Source: Dehalococcoidales bacterium (GTDB lineage Bacteria > Chloroflexota > Dehalococcoidia > Dehalococcoidales > UBA2162). Taken from it: 64,000 nucleotides of DNA. The stretch lies in contig DAOUCV010000021.1 in assembly GCA_034432095.1 (NCBI GenBank), positions 4,262-68,261 on the forward strand, in the 5' to 3' direction. Positions within the stretch are counted from its first letter, which is position 1. Each line of letters begins with the position of its first letter. Shown piece after piece: positions 10,760 through 20,448 of this stretch. Both the position numbers and the translations under genes were made by a program. The notes beneath the pieces are model-generated. The model did not search any database. It saw only the letters and a list, made by a program, of their open reading frames with translations, and was not told the DNA's origin.

Positions 10760-10833
10760 CGGGCCATTGGGAAAATGCTGAGGGCGCAACGGCAACACAA
10801 TGTTGCTTGGAAAGAGTACCAAGGAGGATGTTA

Positions 10834-12915
10834 GTGACCGACCAAACCACTAAAGGCGTGGCCAGAGACAGTACTTGCAGGATGTGCGATAGCGGCTGCC
10901 CTATCAAGGTATATGTTGAAAATGGGCAAATCTCCAGGATAGAAATGACGAGAGAGGCAGTAGCTAACCTCTGCCCCCGGTGGAAAGCACAAAGAGAATT
11001 CGTCTACCATCCTGACCGGCTGCTTTACCCGTTAAGACGCAGTGGTAAGAGAGGCGAAGGAAAGTTCAGCCGCATTTCTTGGGACGAGGCACTGGATACA
11101 GTTGCCCGGAGCTTGCTGGATATTAAAGCGAAGTGGGGACCCGAAGCGGTGGTCTTTTACATTGCTTATCCCAAGGAGCCCCGCCCTTATTTTAAGAGAC
11201 TGGCACATGCTTTTGGTTCCCCCAACTACTGCACCGAAAGCAGTAACTGTGCTACATCGGCGGCGCTGGCTACTGCGGTGACCTATGGCCAGGGCTTTAT
11301 GATGATAGACCCTGGTGCAGACCCAAGATGCCGGTGTAAGCTCATCTGGAGCTCCAGCATCAGGAACTCTATGCCACCTGCCTGGAAAACGTACCTGGAC
11401 ATTAAGTCCAGCGGAGTGAAGCTAATCGTAGTGGACCCGTGTCGGACCAGACTGGCGGAGATGGCAGATATTCACCTTCAGTTACGACCTGGCACTGATG
11501 GTGCTTTAGCTCTGGGCATGCTTAATGTCATCATCGAGAATAATCTTTATGATGCCGATTTCGTCGAGCGGTGGACGGTAGGCTTCGATGAGCTGAGGGA
11601 ACTGGTGAAGGAATATACTCCAGAAAAGGCAGCTCAGATTACGGATGTGCCGGCGAAGCTGATTATTGAAGCTGCTAGAATGTATGCCACCAATAAGCCG
11701 TCTCAGATCAGAACAAGCGCCAGTGCCACTACCCACAGTTCCAATGGCTTTCAGAATCACCGCGCCATCCTGATGCTGCCGGCAGTGACTGGCAATATTG
11801 ATGTCCCGGGCCGGGGTTCTGTTATGGCAGGCTGGCTGCACACCAATGATGTAACTCTGCATGAAAGGGTAGCCAGCATGCCGATCGGGCTGGGAGCAGA
11901 CCGGTTCCCTCTGTGGACGTCTTATCACCGTGAGATGCAATCTAATGTCCTCGCCGACAGGATTGAAACGGCTAAGCCATATCCGATAAAAGCGCTGTTC
12001 GCCGCCGGATTCAATGTAACTTTCTTTCCCAATACTCGCCGGTTCATGGACAATCTTAAGAAACTCGATTTCATCGTAACTACGGAGTACTTCCCCAATG
12101 AGGGTACGGCTATGGCTGACATAGTGCTTCCTATCTCGTCCTGGCTGGAGCGCCCGGTGCTTACCATCTTCCCCGGACGGCCGATTAAGCTGCAAGAACC
12201 GGTCATCGCACCACTGGGCGAGACCAAACCAGAATGGGATATTTATGCCGAGTTGGCGATTAGAATGGGGTTCGGCAGTGAATTCTGGAACGGCGATTTT
12301 GAAAAATGTCTGGATTATGTTTTGGAGCCAACGGGCGTTACTGTCGCAGAACTGAAGCGGCACCCGGAAGGTATTGAGCCAAAACAGACCGCACGACCTG
12401 AAGAAGCCAGCGAAAAGGTTGGCTTCCGGACACCGTCGGGGAAGGTCGAAATTAAATCGTCGATACTAGCCCAATATGGCTATGAACCATTACCAGTTTA
12501 TCGGGAACCCGCTGAAAGCCCTTTGAGTCAACCGGAGCTTGCCCGAACCTATCCTCTCGTCCTGACCAGCGGAGCGCGCACAGTGGTCTATACGCATTCG
12601 CAGTATCGCCAGATTGAGAGTCTACGGCGGATGATGCCATACCCACTGGCGGATATTAATCCGGTTGACGCGAGGGAGCGCGGAATTAAGTCCGGAGATG
12701 ATATTGAAGTTAGCACAAAGAGAGGGACTGCACGTTTCAAAGCACGGGTAACGGATGAAATTAAAGCTGGCGTGGTCAGTTTGCTGCATCACTGGCCTGG
12801 AGAAGCGAACGTCAATATACTGATTGATGATAGCGCCCTTGACCCTGTATCTGGCTTTGCTCCCTTCAAAGCCCAGCTATGCCAGGTAAGACTAGCGCGG
12901 AGGGAAAGCGGTTAG
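10834..12915 (+). CDS. molybdopterin (Mo/W-bisPGD) oxidoreductase, cytoplasmic, DMSO-reductase superfamily
   Basis: N-terminal [4Fe-4S] motif CRMCDSGC...C(PRW) and typical MopB blocks (LIVVDPCRT, LRPGTDGAL), with a C-terminal molybdopterin-binding barrel. No twin-arginine signal. GTG 10834 is preferred as the start (AAGGAGG 6 nt upstream); the ORF is open from 10807. Confidence 0.85.
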   Translation: MTDQTTKGVARDSTCRMCDSGCPIKVYVENGQISRIEMTREAVANLCPRWKAQREFVYHPDRLLYPLRRSGKRGEGKFSRISWDEALDTVARSLLDIKAKWGPEAVVFYIAYPKEPRPYFKRLAHAFGSPNYCTESSNCATSAALATAVTYGQGFMMIDPGADPRCRCKLIWSSSIRNSMPPAWKTYLDIKSSGVKLIVVDPCRTRLAEMADIHLQLRPGTDGALALGMLNVIIENNLYDADFVERWTVGFDELRELVKEYTPEKAAQITDVPAKLIIEAARMYATNKPSQIRTSASATTHSSNGFQNHRAILMLPAVTGNIDVPGRGSVMAGWLHTNDVTLHERVASMPIGLGADRFPLWTSYHREMQSNVLADRIETAKPYPIKALFAAGFNVTFFPNTRRFMDNLKKLDFIVTTEYFPNEGTAMADIVLPISSWLERPVLTIFPGRPIKLQEPVIAPLGETKPEWDIYAELAIRMGFGSEFWNGDFEKCLDYVLEPTGVTVAELKRHPEGIEPKQTARPEEASEKVGFRTPSGKVEIKSSILAQYGYEPLPVYREPAESPLSQPELARTYPLVLTSGARTVVYTHSQYRQIESLRRMMPYPLADINPVDARERGIKSGDDIEVSTKRGTARFKARVTDEIKAGVVSLLHHWPGEANVNILIDDSALDPVSGFAPFKAQLCQVRLARRESG

Positions 12916-13047: not shown

Positions 13048-13497
13048 ATGGCAGAGACAAAGTACGGGAAGTATATCGTCTATGATGCAAGACCCCCTAT
13101 ACCTAAGGGTGCGCCACCGCCACCGCCTCCTGGCGAAAGAAACGGGGCTATGGTGCTGTATGTGGATGATACCATCATTAAGGGGGCTTTCTACTTGAAC
13201 TGTGCCCTGATATGGAAAGCATCGGACAGGGGTAGCCCCGGCGTTGTCCATTCTCACGAGGATTACGACGAATATGTTGGATTTATGGGAAGCAACCCGG
13301 AAGACCCTCACGATTTATGCGGTGAAGTCGAGTTCTGGCTCGGCGGCGAAAAGCACATTCTCACCAAAAGTTGCGCTGTCTTTATCCCCAGGGGACTATT
13401 GCATTGCCCGATATATTTCAGGAGAGTGGACAGGCCTATTTTCTATTTCAGCACGGCACCCTCTACAACATATGGTAAAGACCTGCCCAAGAAATGA
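13048..13497 (+). CDS. small cupin-fold protein, paralogue 1
   Basis: Cupin motif VHSHEDYDEYVGFMG ... LHCP. Strong RBS AAAGGAGGGG. Contains a PPPPPP run. Paralogous to 15235-15681. Confidence 0.7.
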   Translation: MAETKYGKYIVYDARPPIPKGAPPPPPPGERNGAMVLYVDDTIIKGAFYLNCALIWKASDRGSPGVVHSHEDYDEYVGFMGSNPEDPHDLCGEVEFWLGGEKHILTKSCAVFIPRGLLHCPIYFRRVDRPIFYFSTAPSTTYGKDLPKK

Positions 13498-13587
13498 ACT
13501 TTGTGCGGGGGTAAGGCAGTCTGGTTAAAGTAAGCAAGACCGTTAACCATAGTTAGCTATAAGACTACGGTGTTGACGGAGGAACAG

Positions 13588-14367
13588 ATGCAGTTGTATG
13601 TCGGCGGGCTTTCCGAAAACATAGTTGAAGATGAGGTGCTTGAGCTTTTCTCCAGGATAGGCACAGTGGAGTTAGTTCGAGTTATCAGAGATGTCTCCGG
13701 CAAGTCCAGGGGATTCGCTATAGTCAGGATGCCGGACAACACCGAGGGTGAGAACGCTATCAAGAAGCTGAACGGTCTCATGCTAGCTGACCGACGACTG
13801 CAGGTCGCCAGAATGCATGAGACCTTACCCGGGGAAATGGAGTTCAGAGAGTGGCTCAGAGATAACGCATACCAAGTCCTCAAGAAAGTGGGAGTCAGCC
13901 GTGGGCAGACAGTGCTCGACTTTGGTTGCGGTCCCGGTCTGTTCTCGATAGCTGGCGCCACCATAGTTGGGCACGGAGGTAAGGTATATGCCCTCGATGT
14001 CCGTCCCGATGCCCTTGAGCACCTCAGAGAAGCTGCCAGAAGAAAAGGATTGGACAATATAGAGACCATGCTCCTGAACAGGTCCACAATGTCCATCGCT
14101 CTGGAAAATGAGAGCGTGGACGTTGTCCTGCTCTATGATGTGATACAGGAAATAGCGGATAAGCCGGGGCTGCTCAGGGAATTGCACAGGCTATTGAAAC
14201 GTGGTGGTCTTCTCTCTGTCTTTCCCATGCACCTGGGAACGGACAAGTTCTTGAGTATGATTAATCCTCTCGGTCTGTTCCGCTTTAGGGAACGCTACAG
14301 CCCACCGGGACTACAGTCGGCAAGTGAGGTTATCAATCTCACCAAAGATATGCCGTCAGCGAGGTAG
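13588..14367 (+). CDS. RRM (RNA recognition motif) domain fused to a class I SAM-dependent methyltransferase
   Basis: RNP-2 LYVGGL, RNP-1 RGFAIVRM, then AIKKLNG...RRLQVA. The MTase part has motif I VLDFGCGPG, then VYALDV and LLKRGGLL. ATG 13588 is preferred (GGAGG 5 nt upstream); the ORF is open from GTG 13570. Confidence 0.8.
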   Translation: MQLYVGGLSENIVEDEVLELFSRIGTVELVRVIRDVSGKSRGFAIVRMPDNTEGENAIKKLNGLMLADRRLQVARMHETLPGEMEFREWLRDNAYQVLKKVGVSRGQTVLDFGCGPGLFSIAGATIVGHGGKVYALDVRPDALEHLREAARRKGLDNIETMLLNRSTMSIALENESVDVVLLYDVIQEIADKPGLLRELHRLLKRGGLLSVFPMHLGTDKFLSMINPLGLFRFRERYSPPGLQSASEVINLTKDMPSAR

Positions 14368-14393: not shown

Positions 14394-15110
14394 ATGGCAG
14401 AAAAAGACATGATGGTGAACTGCGCCAAGTGTCCACGGCCGGTATGTAACAGCCCAGCGTGGCAAGAAGGACCGGAAAACTGCCCGAGGAAGGTGATGCC
14501 AGACGTCATAGTCAAAGCTACGGAGAAATGCTTTAGCCCCGAGTTCCGGGACTTTGCGATGAAGGCGTCCAAGCAAGAGGGGTCAGGGTACATGAGGCTT
14601 CCTCATTCGCCCAACAGCCCTTCTCCGGTGAAGAGCAGACTTGAAGAAGTGATGGAGTTCGCTCACAGGATGGGGTACAAAAGGCTAGGTGTTGCCTACT
14701 GTGGTGGAGTCCAGTTCGAGGCTGGCCTCTTAATACCTATTCTGGAGAACCGGGGATTTGAGGTGATATCAGTGGCGTGCAAGTGCGGCTCGGTGCCTAA
14801 AGAGGAGCTGGGGATTCAAGACTGGGAGAAAGTCTCCCCTGGGCACTTTGAGGCGATGTGTCATCCAATAGCTCAAGCCGAGATTCTGAATAGCTACAGG
14901 ACAGACCTTAACGTGATGGTATGCCTGTGTGTAGGCCACGATTCCCTTTTTCTGAGACACAGTGAAGCCCCGTGCACCGTGCTCGCTGCCAAGGATAGAG
15001 TCTACGGGCATGCCCCACTGATGGCATTATACCAATCTAGGTCGTATCACCGCCGGGTCATGGCAAAGCAGAGCATACCCGATGCGGCTAAGGAAATGGA
15101 AAAAGGGTGA
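14394..15110 (+). CDS. Cys-rich metal-binding protein (DUF1847-like)
   Basis: N-terminal CAKCPRPVC...CP motif and internal Cys pairs (CKCG, CLCVGHD). The family assignment is from memory of the DUF1847 pattern. Confidence 0.55.
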   Translation: MAEKDMMVNCAKCPRPVCNSPAWQEGPENCPRKVMPDVIVKATEKCFSPEFRDFAMKASKQEGSGYMRLPHSPNSPSPVKSRLEEVMEFAHRMGYKRLGVAYCGGVQFEAGLLIPILENRGFEVISVACKCGSVPKEELGIQDWEKVSPGHFEAMCHPIAQAEILNSYRTDLNVMVCLCVGHDSLFLRHSEAPCTVLAAKDRVYGHAPLMALYQSRSYHRRVMAKQSIPDAAKEMEKG

Positions 15111-15234: not shown

Positions 15235-15681
15235 TTACTCTTTTCGGGGCATTGGTGGCGGCCCTTCCCCCACGAATTTTGTTTCAAATTTACGTGTAAG
15301 CGATATTTCTAGAAATACCACGGGTCTATCCGGGTCGCATTTCTTGATGATTAATGGACAGTGGATTAACCCCGGCGGGACAGAGACAATTGTGGTAGAG
15401 TTGATAATATGTTTTTCCTGTTCCTCGCCTAAACACATCTCTATTTCTGCCCCGAAATCGTTTATATCTTTGGGGTTACCCCCGATGAAGCAAAGGAGCT
15501 CGTGGTAATCGTGTGTGTGGGGATACAGGGCTTTGTATTCCGCATTGGCCAGGCAGTGGTAACCAATGCAGACATCGGCGCCGTACTCACCTCCGTGTGC
15601 GACTATTGAAGTTCCAGTATAATGTGGTATGGTCACAAAAGGCCCCTGTATCAAATATTTCCCGTACTTTGTCTTTGCCAT
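15235..15681 (-). CDS. small cupin-fold protein, paralogue 2
   Basis: It shares MA(E/K)TKYGKY, H-x-H-(D/E)-Y-x-E, NP-D, E-E-LG, KHI, GL-HCP and DRP with 13048-13497. RBS GAGGAGGA. Confidence 0.7.
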   Translation of the reverse strand: MAKTKYGKYLIQGPFVTIPHYTGTSIVAHGGEYGADVCIGYHCLANAEYKALYPHTHDYHELLCFIGGNPKDINDFGAEIEMCLGEEQEKHIINSTTIVSVPPGLIHCPLIIKKCDPDRPVVFLEISLTRKFETKFVGEGPPPMPRKE

Positions 15682-16105: not shown

Positions 16106-16462
16106 TTCGCATTGAATTGTTACTGGGAATAAAGTAAGCAGAAGGGTGAAGTTAATACGGCTCATTCATCCCAAGTGGTGGCATAGTTGGTTTAGGCGGT
16201 TCTGGTAGGGGGCGGCCAGTCGTCTAAGGCAAAAGGTAAACTTCAATTCATTATTAAACGAGACCGAAATCACCCGTTTCTATTAATTGCTACCATCAAG
16301 GCATCGCTGTGGATTAAAGCATATAAAAGCGGAGGTAGCAAAGCAAGATATTGGACGTTAGTAAATTTGACCACGTGGGGGTGTTGTTATGGCTGTACCC
16401 TCAGATGCAGGCGGAAGTATTATTGCCAGCGAATATTACCTTCGGGGAAACGGGAGTATGAT

Positions 16463-17470
16463 ATGAAAAAGAACAGAATTTGTGAGTTGTTATCAATCAA
16501 GTATCCTGTGCTCCAAGCTCCTATGTCATGGATAACTGATGCTAAGTTAGCAGCCGCCGTATCAAATGCTGGCGGTCTGGGTATTATCGGACCCAATGCC
16601 GGTGCAAAAACCCTGACGACAGATGTAATAGAAACCGGGGAGCGTTTACGTAGCGAGATTAGGAGAGCAAAATCACTAACCGACAAACCCTTTGGGGTCA
16701 ATGTTTTATCTTATAAAGGTGACCTTTTTCAATTCAGCGATCAATGCGTCAAAGTCATCCTAGAAGAGGGCGTCGCCGTGGTAGCTTTATGTGGTGACCA
16801 ACCAGAAAAATATGCGAAACAACTGAAAGATGCTGGGATAAAGCTATTACACCGAGCATTACCAGTAAATAATGTTGAAGCTGCCAGGAGAGCGGAACAG
16901 GCAGGAATAGACGCTTTTATCGCTACGGGTTTTGAGGGTGGCGGACATGTGGGTCTTGATAGGATTCCCACTTTTGTATTGATTCCCCAGATTGTGGATG
17001 CCATCAAAATCCCGGTTATTGCTGGGGGTGGCATTGTGGATGGGAGAGGCATGGTCGCGGCCATGGCTCTGGGAGCTGAAGGCGTTTATATGGGCACTAG
17101 ATTCATTGCCACCACAGAGTGTCCGGCGCATCCAACTTATAAACAAGCTATTATAAATGCCAACGATACCAGCACGGTGACATTTACCAGTATGGTTGGT
17201 TTGTGTCGAGCCTTGAAAACGCCACCGGTAGAGCGATATGTTCAAATGGAATTGAATGGTACGGCTACCTATGAGGAAATGGTGAAGTTACACCGTCACG
17301 AAAGCCGGCCCTGGCTAGAGGGGGACTGGGCTACCACTGTTTTCCCGGTCGGTGCTGGTGCTGGTTTGATAAAAAAGGTTACAAGCGCCGCTGAAGTAGT
17401 AACTAGTATCATTGAGGAAGCTGACAGGATACTAAAGAATATGTGTAATTTAGGGCTGATGATGGAATAG
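16463..17470 (+). CDS. nitronate monooxygenase / enoyl-ACP reductase II (FabK-like) family FMN oxidoreductase
   Basis: YPVLQAPMSWITDAKLAAAVSNAGGLGIIG, GFEGGGH and IPVIAGGGI. ATG 16463 is preferred (GGGAG upstream); the ORF is open from 16367. Confidence 0.85.
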   Translation: MKKNRICELLSIKYPVLQAPMSWITDAKLAAAVSNAGGLGIIGPNAGAKTLTTDVIETGERLRSEIRRAKSLTDKPFGVNVLSYKGDLFQFSDQCVKVILEEGVAVVALCGDQPEKYAKQLKDAGIKLLHRALPVNNVEAARRAEQAGIDAFIATGFEGGGHVGLDRIPTFVLIPQIVDAIKIPVIAGGGIVDGRGMVAAMALGAEGVYMGTRFIATTECPAHPTYKQAIINANDTSTVTFTSMVGLCRALKTPPVERYVQMELNGTATYEEMVKLHRHESRPWLEGDWATTVFPVGAGAGLIKKVTSAAEVVTSIIEEADRILKNMCNLGLMME

Positions 17471-17747: not shown

Positions 17748-18905
17748 CTAAATTATCTTCTCTCTCCGCAATTCAGCAATCTTTGCTTCCGAATACCCGA
17801 GAAGCTGAGACATTACTTCTTCGGTGTGTTGACCCAAAGTGGGTGGCGATTTGTATTCCTGCTCCACCCCAGACACCTTTATGGGATTTCCCGCTAACCA
17901 TATCGGGTCTTCCAGAACCCAGTCAACAGGGACTACCATTTTTTGGTGAAGTACCTGGGGGTCAGTAAGGGCTTTATCTATGGTATTTACCGGCCCAGCA
18001 GGTACCCCCTCACTAACAAAGCGTTCCATCCACTCTTCGGTGCTCCTGCTGAGAATGATTTCCTGGATAATGGAGGTCAGTTCCCCCGCATTTTCGTTTC
18101 TCTTAGAAACGGATTCAAATCTTGGGTCTGTAGCTAATTCTTCACGACCAAGGCCTCTACATAGGGCTGGCCAGAACCTATCGCCACCGATGGCGGCGAT
18201 TACGATATGCCCATCACTCGTCTTGTAAGTCCGATAGGTGGGCCTAGGCATATCTGGTCCCTCAGTGACCTTTCCCGAGTAAAAAAAAGCGGGCACGCGA
18301 GCGTACAAGAGCGCTATTTGACCGTCCAACAAGGAGACCTCCACCTTGTAGCCTATGCCAGTATGCTCACGCGAGTAGAGTGCCGCTACAACACCCTGAG
18401 CAGCCCACATCCCTCCGACGCAGTCGGTGATTGAAAGCCCGGACCTCGCCGGAGGAGGATTCCCGGTGATGCTCATTGCCCCTGACATAGCCTGAAGTAC
18501 TAAATCGAAGGCTGGTCGGTCTCTATAGGGGCCTGTTGAGCCAAAGCCAGTAATAGAACAAGATATTATTCTTGGATTTAGGCTCCTTAGACTTGCATAA
18601 TCAACGCCCAGCCTCTCTAGAGTGCCAGGGCGGTAGTTGTCAAGGACAACATCCGCTTTTTTAGTGAGGTCGTAGAAAACCTCTTTGCCCTGTGGAGCTT
18701 TGAGATTTAAGATAATACTCTTTTTGTTCCGGCAGGTCGCAAGAAACACGAAATCGTCCGAATTTAAGCCACCTTCCCCTATTTGTCTCTGTCCTGGTGG
18801 CTCAATTTTGATTACCTCTGCCCCCAAGTCAGCCAATATCATGGAGGCATAGGGTCCTGCCAAGAACTGTGAAAGCTCCAAAACCCTTACCCCTTCAAGC
18901 AACAT
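17748..18905 (-). CDS. family III CoA-transferase (CaiB/BaiF), copy 1
   Basis: LEGVRVLELSQFLAGPYASMILADLGAEVIKIE, a catalytic-Asp block SITDCVGG, and C-terminal LGQHTEEV. Confidence 0.9.
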   Translation of the reverse strand: MLLEGVRVLELSQFLAGPYASMILADLGAEVIKIEPPGQRQIGEGGLNSDDFVFLATCRNKKSIILNLKAPQGKEVFYDLTKKADVVLDNYRPGTLERLGVDYASLRSLNPRIISCSITGFGSTGPYRDRPAFDLVLQAMSGAMSITGNPPPARSGLSITDCVGGMWAAQGVVAALYSREHTGIGYKVEVSLLDGQIALLYARVPAFFYSGKVTEGPDMPRPTYRTYKTSDGHIVIAAIGGDRFWPALCRGLGREELATDPRFESVSKRNENAGELTSIIQEIILSRSTEEWMERFVSEGVPAGPVNTIDKALTDPQVLHQKMVVPVDWVLEDPIWLAGNPIKVSGVEQEYKSPPTLGQHTEEVMSQLLGYSEAKIAELRREKII

Positions 18906-19224
18906 CGCTACTTACTCACCCCCTTAACAACTTTAGTGGCAATTTTGTTTTGACAGGCTCAACTTTCTAGCACCAGACCCGAGGCTTTTGAACCCCTGTG
19001 TTGAATCTTCATCTCCAGCTACACGGTAGAATTAACCATATAGCTCGGCAGTTAGACACATGAGAAATAACCTTTCAACTGACCCTTGTCACCTGTGAAG
19101 CTTCTCCTAAGGTCAATCCAAGTCATCCTGTTAACTGTCTTCCTTCTTCTGGTTCTTCCCGCCTTATGCTATCACTACTCTCTAAAACAGCGCCGAATTT
19201 GGAAATAACCGTAGTGACGTGACA

Positions 19225-20448
19225 CTAGTTTATTGCCCCTAGTTTTCGCAGTTCTGAGATGTCCTTTTCACTGTAACCCAAGCTTTTGAGAATTTCTTCC
19301 GTATGTTGACCGGGGAGAGGAGCTACCCCTCTAATCCGTCCTGGCGTCTCTGACAACTTTATGGTAATTCCGGGATGTTTTATCTTCCCCAGAGTTGGGT
19401 GGTCGACTTCCACGATCATCTTCCGGTGAAGCAGGTGAGGGTCAGAGAGTACTTCGTCAAACCTGTAGACCGGGCCAACGCACGTATCCGCCTCCCGCAG
19501 GATATGCAACCATTCATCCCTTGTCTTCGTGCGAAAAACCTCCTGAAAGGCGGAAAGTATTTGGTGCCGTTTTTCAAGCATCTCCTGTGTGTCGGGGGCG
19601 TACACTCCTATCGCTCTATGGTACGGCAGGAATTCTTCTAAACCCAGCGCTTTACAAAGCCGCTCCCAGAACCAGGGCTCTCCGGGGGCAATATTGATAT
19701 ATTTGCCGTCCTTAGTTTCGAAAACGAGTGCCGGTCTTTCACCTAACTGTGGCTGCCTCCCGCTCATAAAGAATTGAGGTCCGTGACGTATCATCATGAA
19801 CAAAACGAGAGCGTCGACCATGGATGTGTCGACAAATTGCCCCTTCCCGGTCTTTTCTCTGGCAATAAGTGCCAGAAGGATTCCGATGGCGGCCTGCATA
19901 CCTCCTCCGGCGAAGTCACCTATCGGAATACCTGGTATAACGTGGCGACCGTCAGGAGTGCCAGTAATGCCTAAAATACCGGCCATTGATATGTAGTTAG
20001 TATCGTGTCCGGGGAAGAACCGATAGGGACCATCATGCCCATAGCCGGTAACGGAACAACAAATAATTCTTGGATTAATCACCTTAAGAGTATCATAGTC
20101 TACGCCAAGGCGCTTTGTTACCCCCGGCCTGAACTCGTCGATAACAATGTCCGCTGTTTTGGCAAGCTTGTAAAAAATATCCCTACCCTGTTGCGTCTTC
20201 AGGTTTAGACATATACTCCTCTTCCCGCGCTCATCAAATTGGTAAGCAGCGGCTATTTCCCTTCTTCTTTCTTCCTCTTTGGTGATTCTGTTACTATCTG
20301 CCGCAGTCGCTCTTAGCCCAAGACGAGACTGAGGTTGTTCAATTTTGATTGCATCAGCTCCCATGTCAACCAGAAACATCACAGCCAGCGACCCGGTCGG
20401 GAATGTGGTTAAATCTAGCACCTTTATGTGGTCTAGAACTAGCATCAA
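19225..20448 (-). CDS. family III CoA-transferase (CaiB/BaiF), copy 2
   Basis: IKVLDLTT...DMGADAIKIE, Asp block PIGDFAGG, and PGQHTEEIL. Confidence 0.9.
   Translation of the reverse strand: MMLVLDHIKVLDLTTFPTGSLAVMFLVDMGADAIKIEQPQSRLGLRATAADSNRITKEEERRREIAAAYQFDERGKRSICLNLKTQQGRDIFYKLAKTADIVIDEFRPGVTKRLGVDYDTLKVINPRIICCSVTGYGHDGPYRFFPGHDTNYISMAGILGITGTPDGRHVIPGIPIGDFAGGGMQAAIGILLALIAREKTGKGQFVDTSMVDALVLFMMIRHGPQFFMSGRQPQLGERPALVFETKDGKYINIAPGEPWFWERLCKALGLEEFLPYHRAIGVYAPDTQEMLEKRHQILSAFQEVFRTKTRDEWLHILREADTCVGPVYRFDEVLSDPHLLHRKMIVEVDHPTLGKIKHPGITIKLSETPGRIRGVAPLPGQHTEEILKSLGYSEKDISELRKLGAIN

What the first reader, a model, noticed from the sequence alone, without database searches (positions are those of the whole stretch)
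13588..14367. RRM RNA-binding domain fused to a class I SAM methyltransferase
The first ~80 aa are a canonical RRM: RNP-2 LYVGGL, RNP-1 RGFAIVRM, and the AIKKLNG...RRLQVA tail. The remainder is a class I SAM MTase: VLDFGCGPG, VYALDV, VDVVLLYDV, LLKRGGLL. The bacterial RRM proteins I know of are ~90-100-aa stand-alone proteins. RRM-MTase fusions are known from eukaryotes (TRMT2A, ALKBH8). A bacterial fusion implies an RNA-targeted methyltransferase of unknown substrate. It sits inside a catabolic cassette rather than a translation-related locus.
Basis: partly seen in the sequence, partly recalled or inferred. Interest (0 to 1): 0.6.

Follow-up and report, generated by a model that had tools for sequence, protein, structure and literature searches.

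The report
RRM-fused methyltransferase of Dehalococcoidia bacteria
A real, conserved gene of uncultured Chloroflexota (Dehalococcoidia) joins a classic RNA-binding RRM domain to a small SAM-dependent methyltransferase; it is most likely an RNA-directed methylase of unknown target, an architecture known in eukaryotes (TRMT2A, ALKBH8) for which I found no description in bacteria.

Summary
ORF 13588-14367 (+) encodes a 259-aa protein with a bona fide RRM (Pfam RRM_1, E 9e-16, aa 3-71) and a class I SAM methyltransferase (Methyltransf_31/11/25, E 1e-18 to 1e-15).

It is not an assembly or frameshift artefact. At least 118 clusters of ~255-260-aa homologues share the architecture. The junction (ETLPGEMEFREWL) is the most conserved segment, and its codons vary synonymously.

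The fusion is a narrow clade. Every taxonomically named locus is Chloroflexota/Dehalococcoidia. The catalytic module derives from a widespread, uncharacterised family of ~175-aa stand-alone MTases of anaerobic bacteria and archaea. Many of those sit in NifX-like / DUF5320 / MinD-ferredoxin ATPase / radical-SAM operons.

The RRM keeps its nucleic-acid-binding signature (Y4, R/K41, F43, R/K34, R/K47, R/K75). It is as constrained as the enzyme domain.

The best reading (confidence about 0.5) is an RRM-tethered RNA or RNP methyltransferase. Substrate and chemistry are unknown. The local "catabolic" context is not conserved. The only recurrent partner is a Cys-rich DUF1847 protein directly downstream (5 of ~25 assessable loci, one subclade).

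It is a new bacterial variant of a known kind and of moderate interest.

The parts
13578..13583 (+). Shine-Dalgarno sequence GGAGGA, 4 nt upstream of the ATG
   Evidence: Read directly from the sequence. Most homologues have a purine-rich GGAG/AGGA-like stretch just upstream of their ATG.
13588..14367 (+). Complete CDS of the RRM-methyltransferase fusion (259 aa plus stop)
   Evidence: ORF list and sequence. Pfam domains. The identical protein P0001 occurs on 6 contigs.
13588..13815 (+). RRM domain (aa 1-76) with a beta-alpha-beta-beta-alpha-beta fold
   Evidence: Pfam RRM_1, E 9e-16. AF2 secondary structure E2-6, H14-22, E29-34, E40-47, H51-61, E72-75. PDB profile hits to PABP, HuR, HuD and Sxl RRMs.
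13594..13611 (+). RNP-2 motif LYVGGL (aa 3-8)
   Evidence: In 118 homologues position 4 is aromatic or His in 89% (Y84, H12, F9). L3 is conserved in 111/118, G7 in 114/118 and L8 in 109/118.
13708..13731 (+). RNP-1 motif RGFAIVRM (aa 41-48)
   Evidence: R/K41 in 97%, G42 in 94%, F/Y43 in 97%, R/K47 in 79%. Position 45 is always aliphatic (I/L/M/V), never aromatic.
13816..13857 (+). Inter-domain junction HETLPGEMEFREWL (aa 77-90). L80-P81-G82 are specific to the fusion. E83-L90 begin the N-terminal helix of the catalytic module.
   Evidence: This is the most conserved segment: 86% mean pairwise identity against 53% for the RRM and 57% for the MTase. L80, G82, E83 and W89 are invariant in 118 sequences. 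Codons vary synonymously under invariant amino acids.
13834..14346 (+). Class I SAM methyltransferase module (aa 83-253): N-terminal helix plus seven-stranded Rossmann fold
   Evidence: Pfam Methyltransf_31/11/25. AF2 strands at 108-112, 132-137, 158-162, 177-183, 203-212, 231-237 and 248-253. Best PDB match is 3dh0.
13912..13938 (+). SAM-binding motif I VLDFGCGPG (aa 109-117)
   Evidence: D111, G113, G115 and G117 are invariant and C114 is present in 116/118 fusions. In the 51 stand-alone relatives D111, G113 and G117 are invariant, C114 is 94% and G115 88%.
14215..14241 (+). Family signature SVFPMHLGT (aa 210-218) after strand 5; putative substrate or catalytic loop
   Evidence: S210, P213, M214, H215 and G217 are invariant in 118 fusions. 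H215 is kept in 90% of stand-alone relatives. G217 and T218 are fixed only in fusions. Its role is inferred, not tested.
14394..15110 (+). DUF1847 gene (238 aa, Cys-rich putative metalloprotein), 26 bp downstream on the same strand; a facultative, possibly functional partner
   Evidence: Pfam DUF1847, E 5.5e-53. It lies directly downstream of the fusion (26-35 bp, once 273 bp) in 5 independent loci with otherwise unrelated flanks. All 5 fall in one subclade. It is absent from about 20 other assessable loci.

Best explanation
The gene encodes an RNA-tethered SAM-dependent methyltransferase.

Shown:
- It is a single translated polypeptide with an N-terminal canonical RRM and a C-terminal minimal class I MTase.
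- The two are joined by an almost invariant junction.
- The fusion is conserved under purifying selection in a clade of Dehalococcoidia.
- The catalytic module was recruited from a widespread family of ~175-aa stand-alone MTases. It shares with them the SAM site (D111/G113/C114/G115/G117, D137) and the presumed active-site residues (D184, H215, R201, W89, R/K87).

Inferred:
- The RRM binds a single-stranded RNA segment through its beta-sheet face (Y4, R34, R41, F43, R47, R75).
- Because the junction fixes the two domains relative to each other, a nearby nucleotide (or a group or protein carried on that RNA) is presented to the pocket formed by helix 83-101, the YD motif after strand 4 and the PMH loop after strand 5.
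- Methyl transfer from SAM occurs there, with H215/D184 as likely base.
- The residues fixed only in the fusions (R139, G217, T218 and the S246-E247 insert) would be the adaptation of the pocket to the new, RNA-borne substrate.
- In one subclade, including this window, a co-transcribed Cys-rich DUF1847 protein may act as an accessory subunit.

The identity of the RNA, the atom methylated and the role of DUF1847 are unknown.
For: - **Domains.** The RRM and MTase are both called well above the curated cut-offs.
- **Architecture.** It is conserved in 118 of the 120 best hits and in 31 independent loci.
- **RRM face.** The nucleic-acid-binding face is conserved in 118 members. Position 4 is aromatic or His in 89%, R/K41 in 97%, F/Y43 in 97%, R/K34 in 99%, R/K75 in 97% and R/K47 in 79%. 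This pattern of conserved aromatic plus basic surface residues is that of RNA-binding RRMs, not of degenerate protein-binding RRMs (established knowledge of the fold).
- **Constraint.** The RRM is as constrained as the enzyme (53% vs 57% mean pairwise identity). The junction is the most constrained part at 86%.
- **Model.** The AF2 pTM of 0.87 for a two-domain protein suggests a fixed mutual orientation.
- **Remodelling.** Positions near the SAM and substrate site are fixed only in fusions: R139, G217, T218, S246 and E247.
- **Genomic behaviour.** The fusion left the operon context of the wider family; only 1 of 29 fusion loci has the MinD-ferredoxin ATPase. Like its closest stand-alone relative P0128, it sits as a solitary gene in variable contexts. 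This is typical of RNA-modification genes.
- **Precedent.** RRM plus MTase acts on tRNA in TRMT2A and ALKBH8.
- **Fold neighbours.** They include tRNA enzymes with a small N-terminal domain (TrmI) and CmoM.
Against: - No RNA substrate, binding or activity has been shown.
- The MTase module is slightly acidic (mean net charge -2.5) and no more basic than its stand-alone relatives. Many RNA MTases are basic.
- By sequence the nearest solved enzymes are mostly small-molecule MTases: phosphoethanolamine N-MT, ArsM, glucose O-MT and alkaloid N-MTs.
- The wider stand-alone family is embedded in NifX-like / DUF5320 / MinD-ferredoxin / radical-SAM operons, which point to cofactor or small-molecule chemistry. 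The presumed active-site residues are shared with them.
- RNP-1 positions 5 and 8 are never aromatic.
- No neighbour is related to translation or RNA processing.
- An RRM on a methyltransferase does not prove an RNA substrate. Set1 carries an RRM but methylates histone H3 (own knowledge).
- I could not inspect model coordinates, so I could not see whether the RNP face points at the active site.
Confidence: 0.5

Rival explanations
1. It is a small-molecule or cofactor methyltransferase that keeps the ancestral substrate class of its family, for example a metabolite, metal(loid) or metallocluster-linked group. The RRM is a regulatory add-on that lets the enzyme bind mRNA, either to regulate itself or other genes or to be sequestered by RNA. 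RNA is not what gets methylated.
For: - The catalytic residues D184, H215, R201, C114 and W89 are shared with stand-alone relatives.
- Those relatives lie in NifX-like / DUF5320 / MinD-ferredoxin / radical-SAM operons.
- The nearest solved enzymes are mostly small-molecule MTases, and the nearest NCBIfam models are ArsM, UbiE and CpaM-like.
- The MTase domain is acidic.
- Neighbours are metabolic. The recurrent ones are a Cys-rich metalloprotein (DUF1847), MBL-fold hydrolases, a phosphotriesterase family protein and Fur.
Against: - The junction is invariant and rigid, which is unexpected for a loosely appended regulatory domain.
- The fusion lineage and its closest stand-alone relative have left the metallocluster operon.
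- Pocket-proximal residues were re-fixed after fusion.
- The fusion genes share no conserved 5' leader motif that could be an autoregulatory target, and there is no Rfam element.
Confidence: 0.24
2. It is a protein methyltransferase that is recruited by its RRM to a ribonucleoprotein, such as the ribosome, and methylates a protein there. This would be analogous in logic to PrmA or to RRM-bearing Set1.
For: There are weak Pfam and NCBIfam similarities to PrmA, PCMT and lysine MTases (PF06325 29.8 bits, PF10294, PF01135). The RRM face is conserved. An acidic catalytic domain would suit basic ribosomal-protein substrates (inference).
Against: These similarities cover only the generic SAM-binding half of the fold. 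The NCBIfam PrmA score is 35 against a cut-off of 183. There are no ribosomal or translation neighbours. No member of the stand-alone family is known to be a protein MTase.
Confidence: 0.1
3. The RRM-fold domain no longer binds nucleic acid and serves as a protein-protein, dimerisation or partner-docking module (for DUF1847, for example), as in UHM-type RRMs.
For: RNP-1 positions 5 and 8 are non-aromatic. The domain is rigidly packed to the enzyme (pTM 0.87). A recurrent partner gene exists in one subclade.
Against: - Conserved exposed-type residues on the sheet are aromatic plus basic (Y4, F43, R34, R41, R/K47, R/K75). That is the opposite of the UHM pattern (knowledge of the fold).
- The strongest profile matches are to genuine RNA-binding RRMs: PABP, HuR, HuD, Sxl and the bacterial Rbp model.
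- DUF1847 is absent from most loci.
Confidence: 0.08
4. It is an artefact: two separate genes (an rbp gene and an MTase gene) merged by a frameshift, sequencing error or assembly join.
For: None was found.
Against: - 118 homologues have the same length and architecture.
- The identical protein occurs on 6 contigs held under several sources.
- The junction is the most conserved segment, with synonymous codon variation across it.
- There is no compositional break.
- The AF2 model is confident across the junction.
Confidence: 0.01

Closest known systems
TRMT2A / yeast Trm2 (tRNA m5U54 methyltransferase with N-terminal RRM)
   Same: The order is the same: an N-terminal RRM followed by a C-terminal SAM-dependent MTase in one polypeptide. 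The RRM presumably helps engage the RNA substrate.
   Different: The TRMT2A catalytic domain is of the TrmA/RumA type (tRNA_U5-meth_tr), with a catalytic Cys nucleophile. No such Pfam match is found here. This catalytic module is a minimal ~175-aa Methyltransf_11/25/31-type domain. TRMT2A is eukaryotic and this family is bacterial, so the fusion arose independently.
ALKBH8 (RRM + AlkB dioxygenase + Trm9-like MTase; needs TRM112)
   Same: It has an RRM in the same polypeptide as a Methyltransf_11-type class I MTase. The MTase works with a small metal-binding accessory protein, TRM112. That loosely parallels the DUF1847 gene downstream here.
   Different: There is no AlkB domain here. No specific similarity to Trm9 appeared among solved structures at E<=1e-5. 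DUF1847 is unrelated to TRM112 in size and has no solved relative. It is present in only about a fifth of loci.
Bacterial stand-alone RRM proteins (cyanobacterial Rbp, Bacteroides RbpB, Acinetobacter AbElavl, Vibrio RtmR)
   Same: The domain family is the same. The NCBIfam 'Rbp_regulator' model matches at E 2.6e-16. These proteins have confirmed RNA binding.
   Different: They are ~80-110-aa single-domain proteins, or membrane-anchored in the case of RtmR, that act as post-transcriptional regulators. None carries an enzyme domain.
Uncharacterised stand-alone small MTase family (e.g. P0128, 175 aa; distant solved relative 3dh0 of Aquifex aeolicus)
   Same: The catalytic module is homologous: 43-57% identity to the closest members. 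The EFRxWL helix, DxGCGxG, LLYDV and (F/Y)PMH motifs are shared.
   Different: They have no RRM. Many members lie in NifX-like / DUF5320 / MinD-ferredoxin / radical-SAM operons. They lack the fusion-specific residues R139, G217, T218 and S246-E247. 3dh0 lacks the C114, YDV and PMH signatures and has no assigned function.
DbpA/YxiN-type DEAD-box helicases (bacterial enzymes with an RRM-fold RNA-targeting domain)
   Same: They set a bacterial precedent for an RRM-fold domain tethering a catalytic core to a specific RNA site, hairpin 92 of 23S rRNA (own knowledge, not tested here).
   Different: The enzyme class is different (helicase). Their RRM-fold domain is C-terminal and belongs to a different Pfam family (DbpA).
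Arsenite methyltransferase ArsM
   Same: It is the best-scoring NCBIfam model for the catalytic domain (64.5 bits), with a similar DxGCGxG motif. ArsM structures are among the nearer PDB hits.
   Different: The score is far below the cut-off of 263. Only one Cys (C114) is conserved in the family, whereas ArsM needs several As(III)-binding cysteines (knowledge of ArsM).

Membership tests
RRM (Pfam PF00076, RNA recognition motif) | Profile match above the curated gathering score | tested here: met
   RRM_1 E 9e-16, 58 bits against 20.7, covering model positions 1-69 of 70.
RRM (Pfam PF00076, RNA recognition motif) | beta1-alpha1-beta2-beta3-alpha2-beta4 fold | tested here: met
   AF2 model: E2-6, H14-22, E29-34, E40-47, H51-61, E72-75, with pLDDT about 90-96.
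RRM (Pfam PF00076, RNA recognition motif) | RNP-2 hexamer [ILV]-[FY]-[ILV]-x-N-L and RNP-1 octamer [RK]-G-[FY]-[GA]-[FY]-[ILV]-x-[FY] | tested here: inconclusive
   RNP-2 LYVGGL matches 5 of 6 positions. RNP-1 RGFAIVRM matches 6 of 8; positions 5 and 8 are aliphatic or Met and never aromatic in 118 homologues. Two of the three classical aromatic positions (Y4, F43) and the basic R41 are conserved.
RRM (Pfam PF00076, RNA recognition motif) | Binds single-stranded RNA | not testable with these tools
   This needs EMSA, anisotropy or CLIP.
Class I (Rossmann-fold) SAM-dependent methyltransferase | Profile match above the curated cut-off to class I MTase families | tested here: met
   Methyltransf_31 67 bits (cut-off 27), Methyltransf_11 59.8 (21.2), Methyltransf_25 57.2 (27).
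Class I (Rossmann-fold) SAM-dependent methyltransferase | Seven-stranded sheet, GxGxG motif I, acidic residue at the end of strand 2 | tested here: met
   Seven strands in the AF2 model. D111-x-G113-C-G115-x-G117 is invariant. The acidic residue D137 is nearly invariant in alignment A2 of fusions plus stand-alone relatives.
Class I (Rossmann-fold) SAM-dependent methyltransferase | Binds SAM and transfers a methyl group | not testable with these tools
   This needs biochemical assay.
Arsenite methyltransferase (ArsM, NF008823) | Score above the NCBIfam cut-off; several conserved As(III)-binding cysteines | tested here: not met
   64.5 bits against a cut-off of 263. C114 is the only conserved Cys in the family.
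UbiE/MenG quinone C-methyltransferases | Full-length match to equivalog models | tested here: not met
   NCBIfam scores of 38-49 bits against cut-offs of 158-420. The Pfam Ubie_methyltran match covers only model positions 38-152 of 233.
CpaM / DVU_1556-type methyltransferases | Score above the NCBIfam cut-off | tested here: not met
   CpaM 46.8 against 180. DVU_1556 38.4 against 155.
TRMT2A/Trm2 family | TrmA/RumA-type m5U catalytic domain downstream of the RRM | tested here: not met
   No match to the tRNA_U5-meth_tr family among 20 Pfam hits. Only the domain order is analogous.
ALKBH8 family | AlkB 2OG-Fe(II) oxygenase domain between the RRM and a Trm9-like MTase | tested here: not met
   The protein is 259 aa with no AlkB domain. 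No Trm9 structure appears among PDB profile hits at E<=1e-5.
PrmA (ribosomal protein L11 methyltransferase) | Full-length match including the N-terminal L11-binding domain | tested here: not met
   The Pfam PrmA match covers only model positions 159-244 of 296. TIGR00406 scores 35.2 against 183.
Stand-alone small MTase family (P0128-like; no curated name) | EFRxWL N-terminal helix, DxGCGxG, LLYDV, (F/Y)PMH, ~175 aa | tested here: met
   The catalytic module shares all four signatures. It is 43-57% identical to the closest stand-alone members.

The most novel reading that the evidence does not exclude
The family is a bacterial RRM-guided RNA methyltransferase that installs a modification not made by any known bacterial enzyme. 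Its chemistry would be inherited from a metallocluster-operon MTase family of unknown reaction, for example methylation of a heteroatom on a pre-modified nucleoside. In one subclade it would work as a two-subunit enzyme with the Cys-rich DUF1847 metalloprotein, analogous to Trm9-Trm112. It would then be the first enzyme-linked RRM described in bacteria and a handle on the function of two uncharacterised families: DUF1847 and the NifX-associated small MTases.
Probability: 0.15. Interest if true: 0.75.

Novelty: new variant of a known kind. Interest (0 to 1): 0.45.

Why it matters
Bacterial RRM proteins are only now being studied, and so far they are known only as small regulators. An RRM covalently and rigidly joined to an enzyme would show that bacteria also use this domain to target catalysis.

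It would also define a candidate new RNA-modification enzyme in Dehalococcoidia, a lineage whose RNA-modification machinery has, to my knowledge, hardly been studied.

Because the catalytic module is a recent offshoot of a large uncharacterised MTase family of anaerobes, finding its substrate could also illuminate that family and its NifX-like / MinD-ferredoxin / radical-SAM operon.

If the substrate instead turns out to be a small molecule, the protein would be a rare bacterial case of an RNA-binding metabolic enzyme.

Either way the claim is directly testable with a 259-aa soluble protein.

Tried and rejected
- **Frameshift or assembly chimera.** Rejected.
- **Alternative GTG start at 13570.** Rejected, because all homologues start at the ATG with MQL and an SD lies upstream.
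- **Internal translation start at conserved M84 preceded by GGNGAR.** Rejected. G82 codons show no bias to SD-like GGA/GGG (GGT 13, GGG 6, GGC 4, GGA 2).
- **DUF1847 as an obligate partner.** Rejected. It is adjacent in only 5 of ~25 assessable loci, and DUF1847 also occurs without the fusion.
- **DUF1847 function by homology or fold.** Nothing found. No PDB sequence hit at E<=1 and only weak generic alpha/beta fold matches. No literature.
- **The two flanking cupin-like ~149-aa paralogues as partners.** Not recurrent.
- **RRM fusions in other phyla.** Apparent N-terminal extensions of MT-only hits are over-extended ORF calls without an RRM.
- **Conserved 5' leader motif or known RNA element.** None.
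- **Promoter and terminator scan.** No more sites than in shuffles.
- **Defence-system or viral origin.** Only generic MTase similarity to PADLOC mad2 and to viral contigs at <=35% identity, with no RRM.
- **Assigning the substrate by nearest curated family or solved structure.** No model reaches its cut-off, and neighbours mix small-molecule and tRNA MTases.
- **The NifX/MinD operon as the context of the closest stand-alone relatives.** Not so. P0128 and P0400 are solitary and only the more distant members are in the operon.
- **AFDB fold survey.** The library was unavailable.
- **Literature.** No paper on this fusion, on DUF1847 or on the operon.
Full report
**1. The observation**

The + strand ORF 13588-14367 encodes 259 aa. 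A GGAGGA Shine-Dalgarno sequence lies at 13578-13583, 4 nt before the ATG. All 28 homologous genes I located start with ATG and M-Q/L-L/I, and most have a purine-rich stretch just upstream.

Pfam finds RRM_1 at aa 3-71 (E 9e-16, 58 bits, cut-off 20.7). It finds Methyltransf_31/11/25/12 at aa 105-211 (E 1.9e-18 to 9e-14). All are above their curated cut-offs.

An AlphaFold2 model built on a 33-sequence alignment is confident (pLDDT 93.6, pTM 0.87). It shows a beta-alpha-beta-beta-alpha-beta RRM (aa 2-75), a long helix (aa 83-101) and a seven-stranded Rossmann MTase.

**2. Is the fusion real?**

Yes. The evidence is as follows.
- The identical protein is on 6 contigs held under several sources, including JGI 3300022548 and NCBI GCA_964597165.1.
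- Of the best 120 hits in a 5.8-billion-protein database, 118 are 252-272 aa and carry both RRM_1 and the MTase domains. Their identities run from 83% down to 52%.
- The inter-domain junction HETLPGEMEFREWL is the most conserved part of the protein. Its mean pairwise identity is 86%, against 53% for the RRM and 57% for the MTase. L80, G82, E83 and W89 are invariant in 118 sequences.
- Across 25 genes the junction codons vary freely at synonymous sites while the amino acids stay fixed.
- There is no compositional break at about 13830.

**3. Distribution**

In one genome for each of 185,579 species, full-length fusions were found in 12 loci, all from Dehalococcoidia or 'Chloroflexia' MAGs. Fifteen more came from metagenome contigs and two from contig look-ups.

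An exhaustive HMM search of 1.84 billion 50%-identity representatives gives only three or four full-length representatives plus fragments: P0121, P0123 and P0124. The fusion is thus a narrow clade.

Apparent N-terminal extensions in other phyla are ORF over-calls without an RRM. None is on viral contigs. Named members are annotated only as 'methyltransferase domain-containing protein' or 'hypothetical protein'. I found no paper describing the architecture. The literature on bacterial RRM proteins covers only small stand-alone proteins and one membrane-anchored case.

**4. Origin of the catalytic module**

Residues ~84-240 match a large family of 165-195-aa stand-alone proteins from anaerobic bacteria and archaea. 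The phyla include Bathyarchaeota, Asgard archaea, KSB1, Zixibacteria, Aminicenantes, Desulfobacterota, Planctomycetota and others.

These proteins share several signatures with the fusion:
- the N-terminal EFRxWL helix;
- DxGCGxG, with D111, G113 and G117 invariant, C114 94% and G115 88%;
- D178, L181 and D184 (90%), R201 (82%) and H215 (90%);
- in the closer members, the (F/Y)PMH loop.

No NCBIfam model reaches its cut-off for either the fusion or ten stand-alone members. The best is ArsM at 58-75 bits against 263.

The best solved relative is 3dh0, an uncharacterised Aquifex protein that lacks the family signatures. The remaining PDB neighbours mix small-molecule MTases (PEAMT, ArsM, glucose O-MT, MitM, alkaloid N-MTs) with tRNA enzymes (CmoM, TrmI, MnmM/YtqB). 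Homology therefore does not fix the substrate class.

The closest stand-alone protein, P0128 (175 aa), is more similar to the fusions (52-57%) than to any other stand-alone cluster outside its own close variants (<=49% among full-length proteins). It represents the sister or ancestral form.

**5. Genomic context**

Among 133 stand-alone loci, the following neighbours recur (Pfam-confirmed):

| Neighbour | Loci | Usual position |
|---|---|---|
| CbiA/MinD-type ATPase with inserted 2x[4Fe-4S] ferredoxin | 32 | +1 on the same strand in 27 |
| Nitro_FeMo-Co (NifX-like) protein | 22 | -1 or -2 |
| DUF5320 protein | 12 | -1 |
| Radical-SAM protein | about 9 | +1 or +2 |

P0411 is flanked by three NifX-like genes. 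This operon is uncharacterised.

It belongs to the more distant subgroup, however. P0128 and P0400 are solitary genes, and only 1 of 29 fusion loci has the ATPase.

The fusion genes sit in highly variable contexts. The window's neighbours are a molybdopterin oxidoreductase, cupin-like proteins, an NMO-family protein, CoA-transferases and ABC peptide transport genes. They are not conserved elsewhere.

The only recurrent tightly linked neighbour is DUF1847, directly downstream on the same strand. The gap is 26 bp here, 33-35 bp in L008, L166 and L167, and 273 bp in L006. The flanks of these loci are otherwise unrelated. That is 5 of ~25 assessable loci. All five fall in one of the two major subclades (5 of 10 there, none among the assessable members of the other subclade).

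DUF1847 also occurs without the fusion. It has 10-11 invariant Cys and 4 invariant His. It has no solved relative by sequence or fold.

Weaker recurrent neighbours of fusions are MBL-fold hydrolases (5 loci), a phosphotriesterase-family protein (4) and Fur (2). None is related to translation.

**6. Is the RRM functional as a nucleic-acid binder?**

In 118 members the residues of the beta-sheet face are conserved in the way expected for RNA binding:

| Position | Residues | Share |
|---|---|---|
| 4 (RNP-2 position 2) | aromatic or His | 89% |
| 41 (RNP-1 position 1) | R/K | 97% |
| 43 (RNP-1 position 3) | F/Y | 97% |
| 47 | R/K | 79% |
| 34 | R/K | 99% |
| 75 | R/K | 97% |
| 2 | Q | 96% |

RNP-1 positions 5 and 8 are aliphatic or Met, so one of the three classical aromatic residues is missing.

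The profile's best PDB matches are genuine RNA-binding RRMs: PABP, HuR, HuD, Sxl and chloroplast cS22. The bacterial Rbp model matches at E 2.6e-16. The RRM is as constrained as the enzyme domain.

**7. Changes that accompanied the fusion**

Several positions are fixed in fusions (>=93%) but variable in 51 stand-alone relatives. They are L80-P81-G82 in the junction, R139 (two residues after the ribose-binding D137), G217-T218 (just after the PMH loop) and S246-E247 in a ~10-residue insert.

These changes are consistent with remodelling near the substrate site and with a new inter-domain interface. The MTase part did not become basic, however. Its mean net charge is -2.5, against -1.7 for stand-alone proteins.

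**8. Interpretation**

The best-supported model (about 0.5) is an RRM-tethered methyltransferase acting on RNA, or on something carried by an RNA. The RRM supplies substrate recognition, and the invariant junction fixes the geometry between the bound RNA and the active site.

Shown: the architecture, its conservation, the homology of both halves, the conserved RNP face, the rigid junction and the departure from the ancestral operon. Inferred: RNA binding, RNA as the methyl acceptor, H215/D184 as catalytic residues and DUF1847 as an accessory subunit.

The main rival (about 0.24) is that the enzyme keeps a small-molecule or cofactor substrate and the RRM is regulatory. The family's operon context, the nearest solved enzymes and the acidic catalytic domain favour it. 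The invariant junction, the remodelled pocket and the absence of a conserved leader motif argue against it.

Lesser rivals are an RNP-directed protein MTase (about 0.1) and a non-nucleic-acid RRM (about 0.08). The artefact reading is excluded.

**9. Comparison with known systems**

Functionally the protein resembles TRMT2A/Trm2 (RRM plus m5U MTase) and ALKBH8 (RRM plus AlkB plus Trm9-like MTase needing TRM112). It is a member of neither, because the TrmA-type and AlkB domains are absent.

It is not ArsM, UbiE/MenG, CpaM, a DVU_1556-type enzyme or PrmA. All are far below their cut-offs or match only partially.

It is a member of the RRM_1 and class I MTase superfamilies. It also belongs to an unnamed small-MTase family.

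**10. Verdict**

This is a real feature.

Novelty: a new bacterial variant of a known kind (an RNA-binding-domain-MTase fusion). The sequences are already in public databases, but I found no characterisation of them in the curated family libraries or the literature searched.

Interest is moderate (0.45). It is a clean, testable candidate for a new bacterial RNA-modification enzyme and the first enzyme-linked bacterial RRM. The substrate is unknown and a non-RNA substrate cannot be excluded.

Noticed in passing
Loci L018-L085 and L102-L165 (e.g. L067:5174-5947, L109:5501-6394, L047:6492-7526); L175:4518-7628: Stand-alone relatives of the catalytic module sit in a conserved, apparently uncharacterised operon of anaerobic bacteria and archaea. 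Its order is NifX-like (Nitro_FeMo-Co), DUF5320, small MTase, MinD/CbiA ATPase with an inserted 2x[4Fe-4S] ferredoxin, then radical SAM. It resembles a split metallocluster-maturation system that includes a SAM methyltransferase. No literature was found.
   Followed up: partly
window 14394-15110 (+): This is a DUF1847 protein with 10-11 invariant Cys (an N-terminal CX2CX4CX11C plus others) and 4 invariant His. Identity is 70-91% across 120 Chloroflexota-type homologues, which is more conserved than the RRM-MTase. It has no solved relative by sequence or fold and no literature.
   Followed up: partly
window 13048-13497 (+) and 15235-15681 (-): Two paralogous ~149-aa cupin-like genes (E about 1e-14 to each other, weak Cupin_2 match) bracket the RRM-MTase/DUF1847 pair in inverted orientation. 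A member of the same family lies about 3 kb from a DUF1847 gene in L169. They are not found in the other fusion loci.
   Followed up: partly
L168:4001-7692: In a Chloroflexota MAG a DUF1847 gene without an RRM-MTase lies next to a PALP enzyme and an RtcB RNA ligase plus Archease pair. L008 also has a PALP gene after DUF1847. This may be coincidental, but it is the only RNA-related neighbour seen.
   Followed up: no
L014:620-1387, L015:451-1230, L016:1-660 (MAG CAZPQB01): One Dehalococcoidaceae MAG carries three RRM-MTase copies that are 76-87% identical to each other. They are either true paralogues, which would be unusual for a housekeeping RNA MTase, or a mixture of strains in the bin.
   Followed up: no
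window 10807-12915 (+), 16367-17470 (+), 17748-20448 (-): The surrounding genes form a catabolic-looking cluster: a molybdopterin oxidoreductase, an NMO-family flavoenzyme and two family III CoA-transferases. Upstream are an ABC peptide-type transporter, an FGGY kinase and an alpha/beta hydrolase. This cluster is not conserved next to other members of the fusion family.
   Followed up: partly
L097:825-1523 and three other fusion loci; L008:9090-9926 and four other fusion loci: Two weak recurrent neighbours of the fusion gene were seen. A phosphotriesterase-family (PTE) gene lies directly downstream in 4 loci. An MBL-fold hydrolase lies within three genes of the fusion (mostly at +1 or -1 on the same strand) in 5 loci. 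Their significance is unknown.
   Followed up: no
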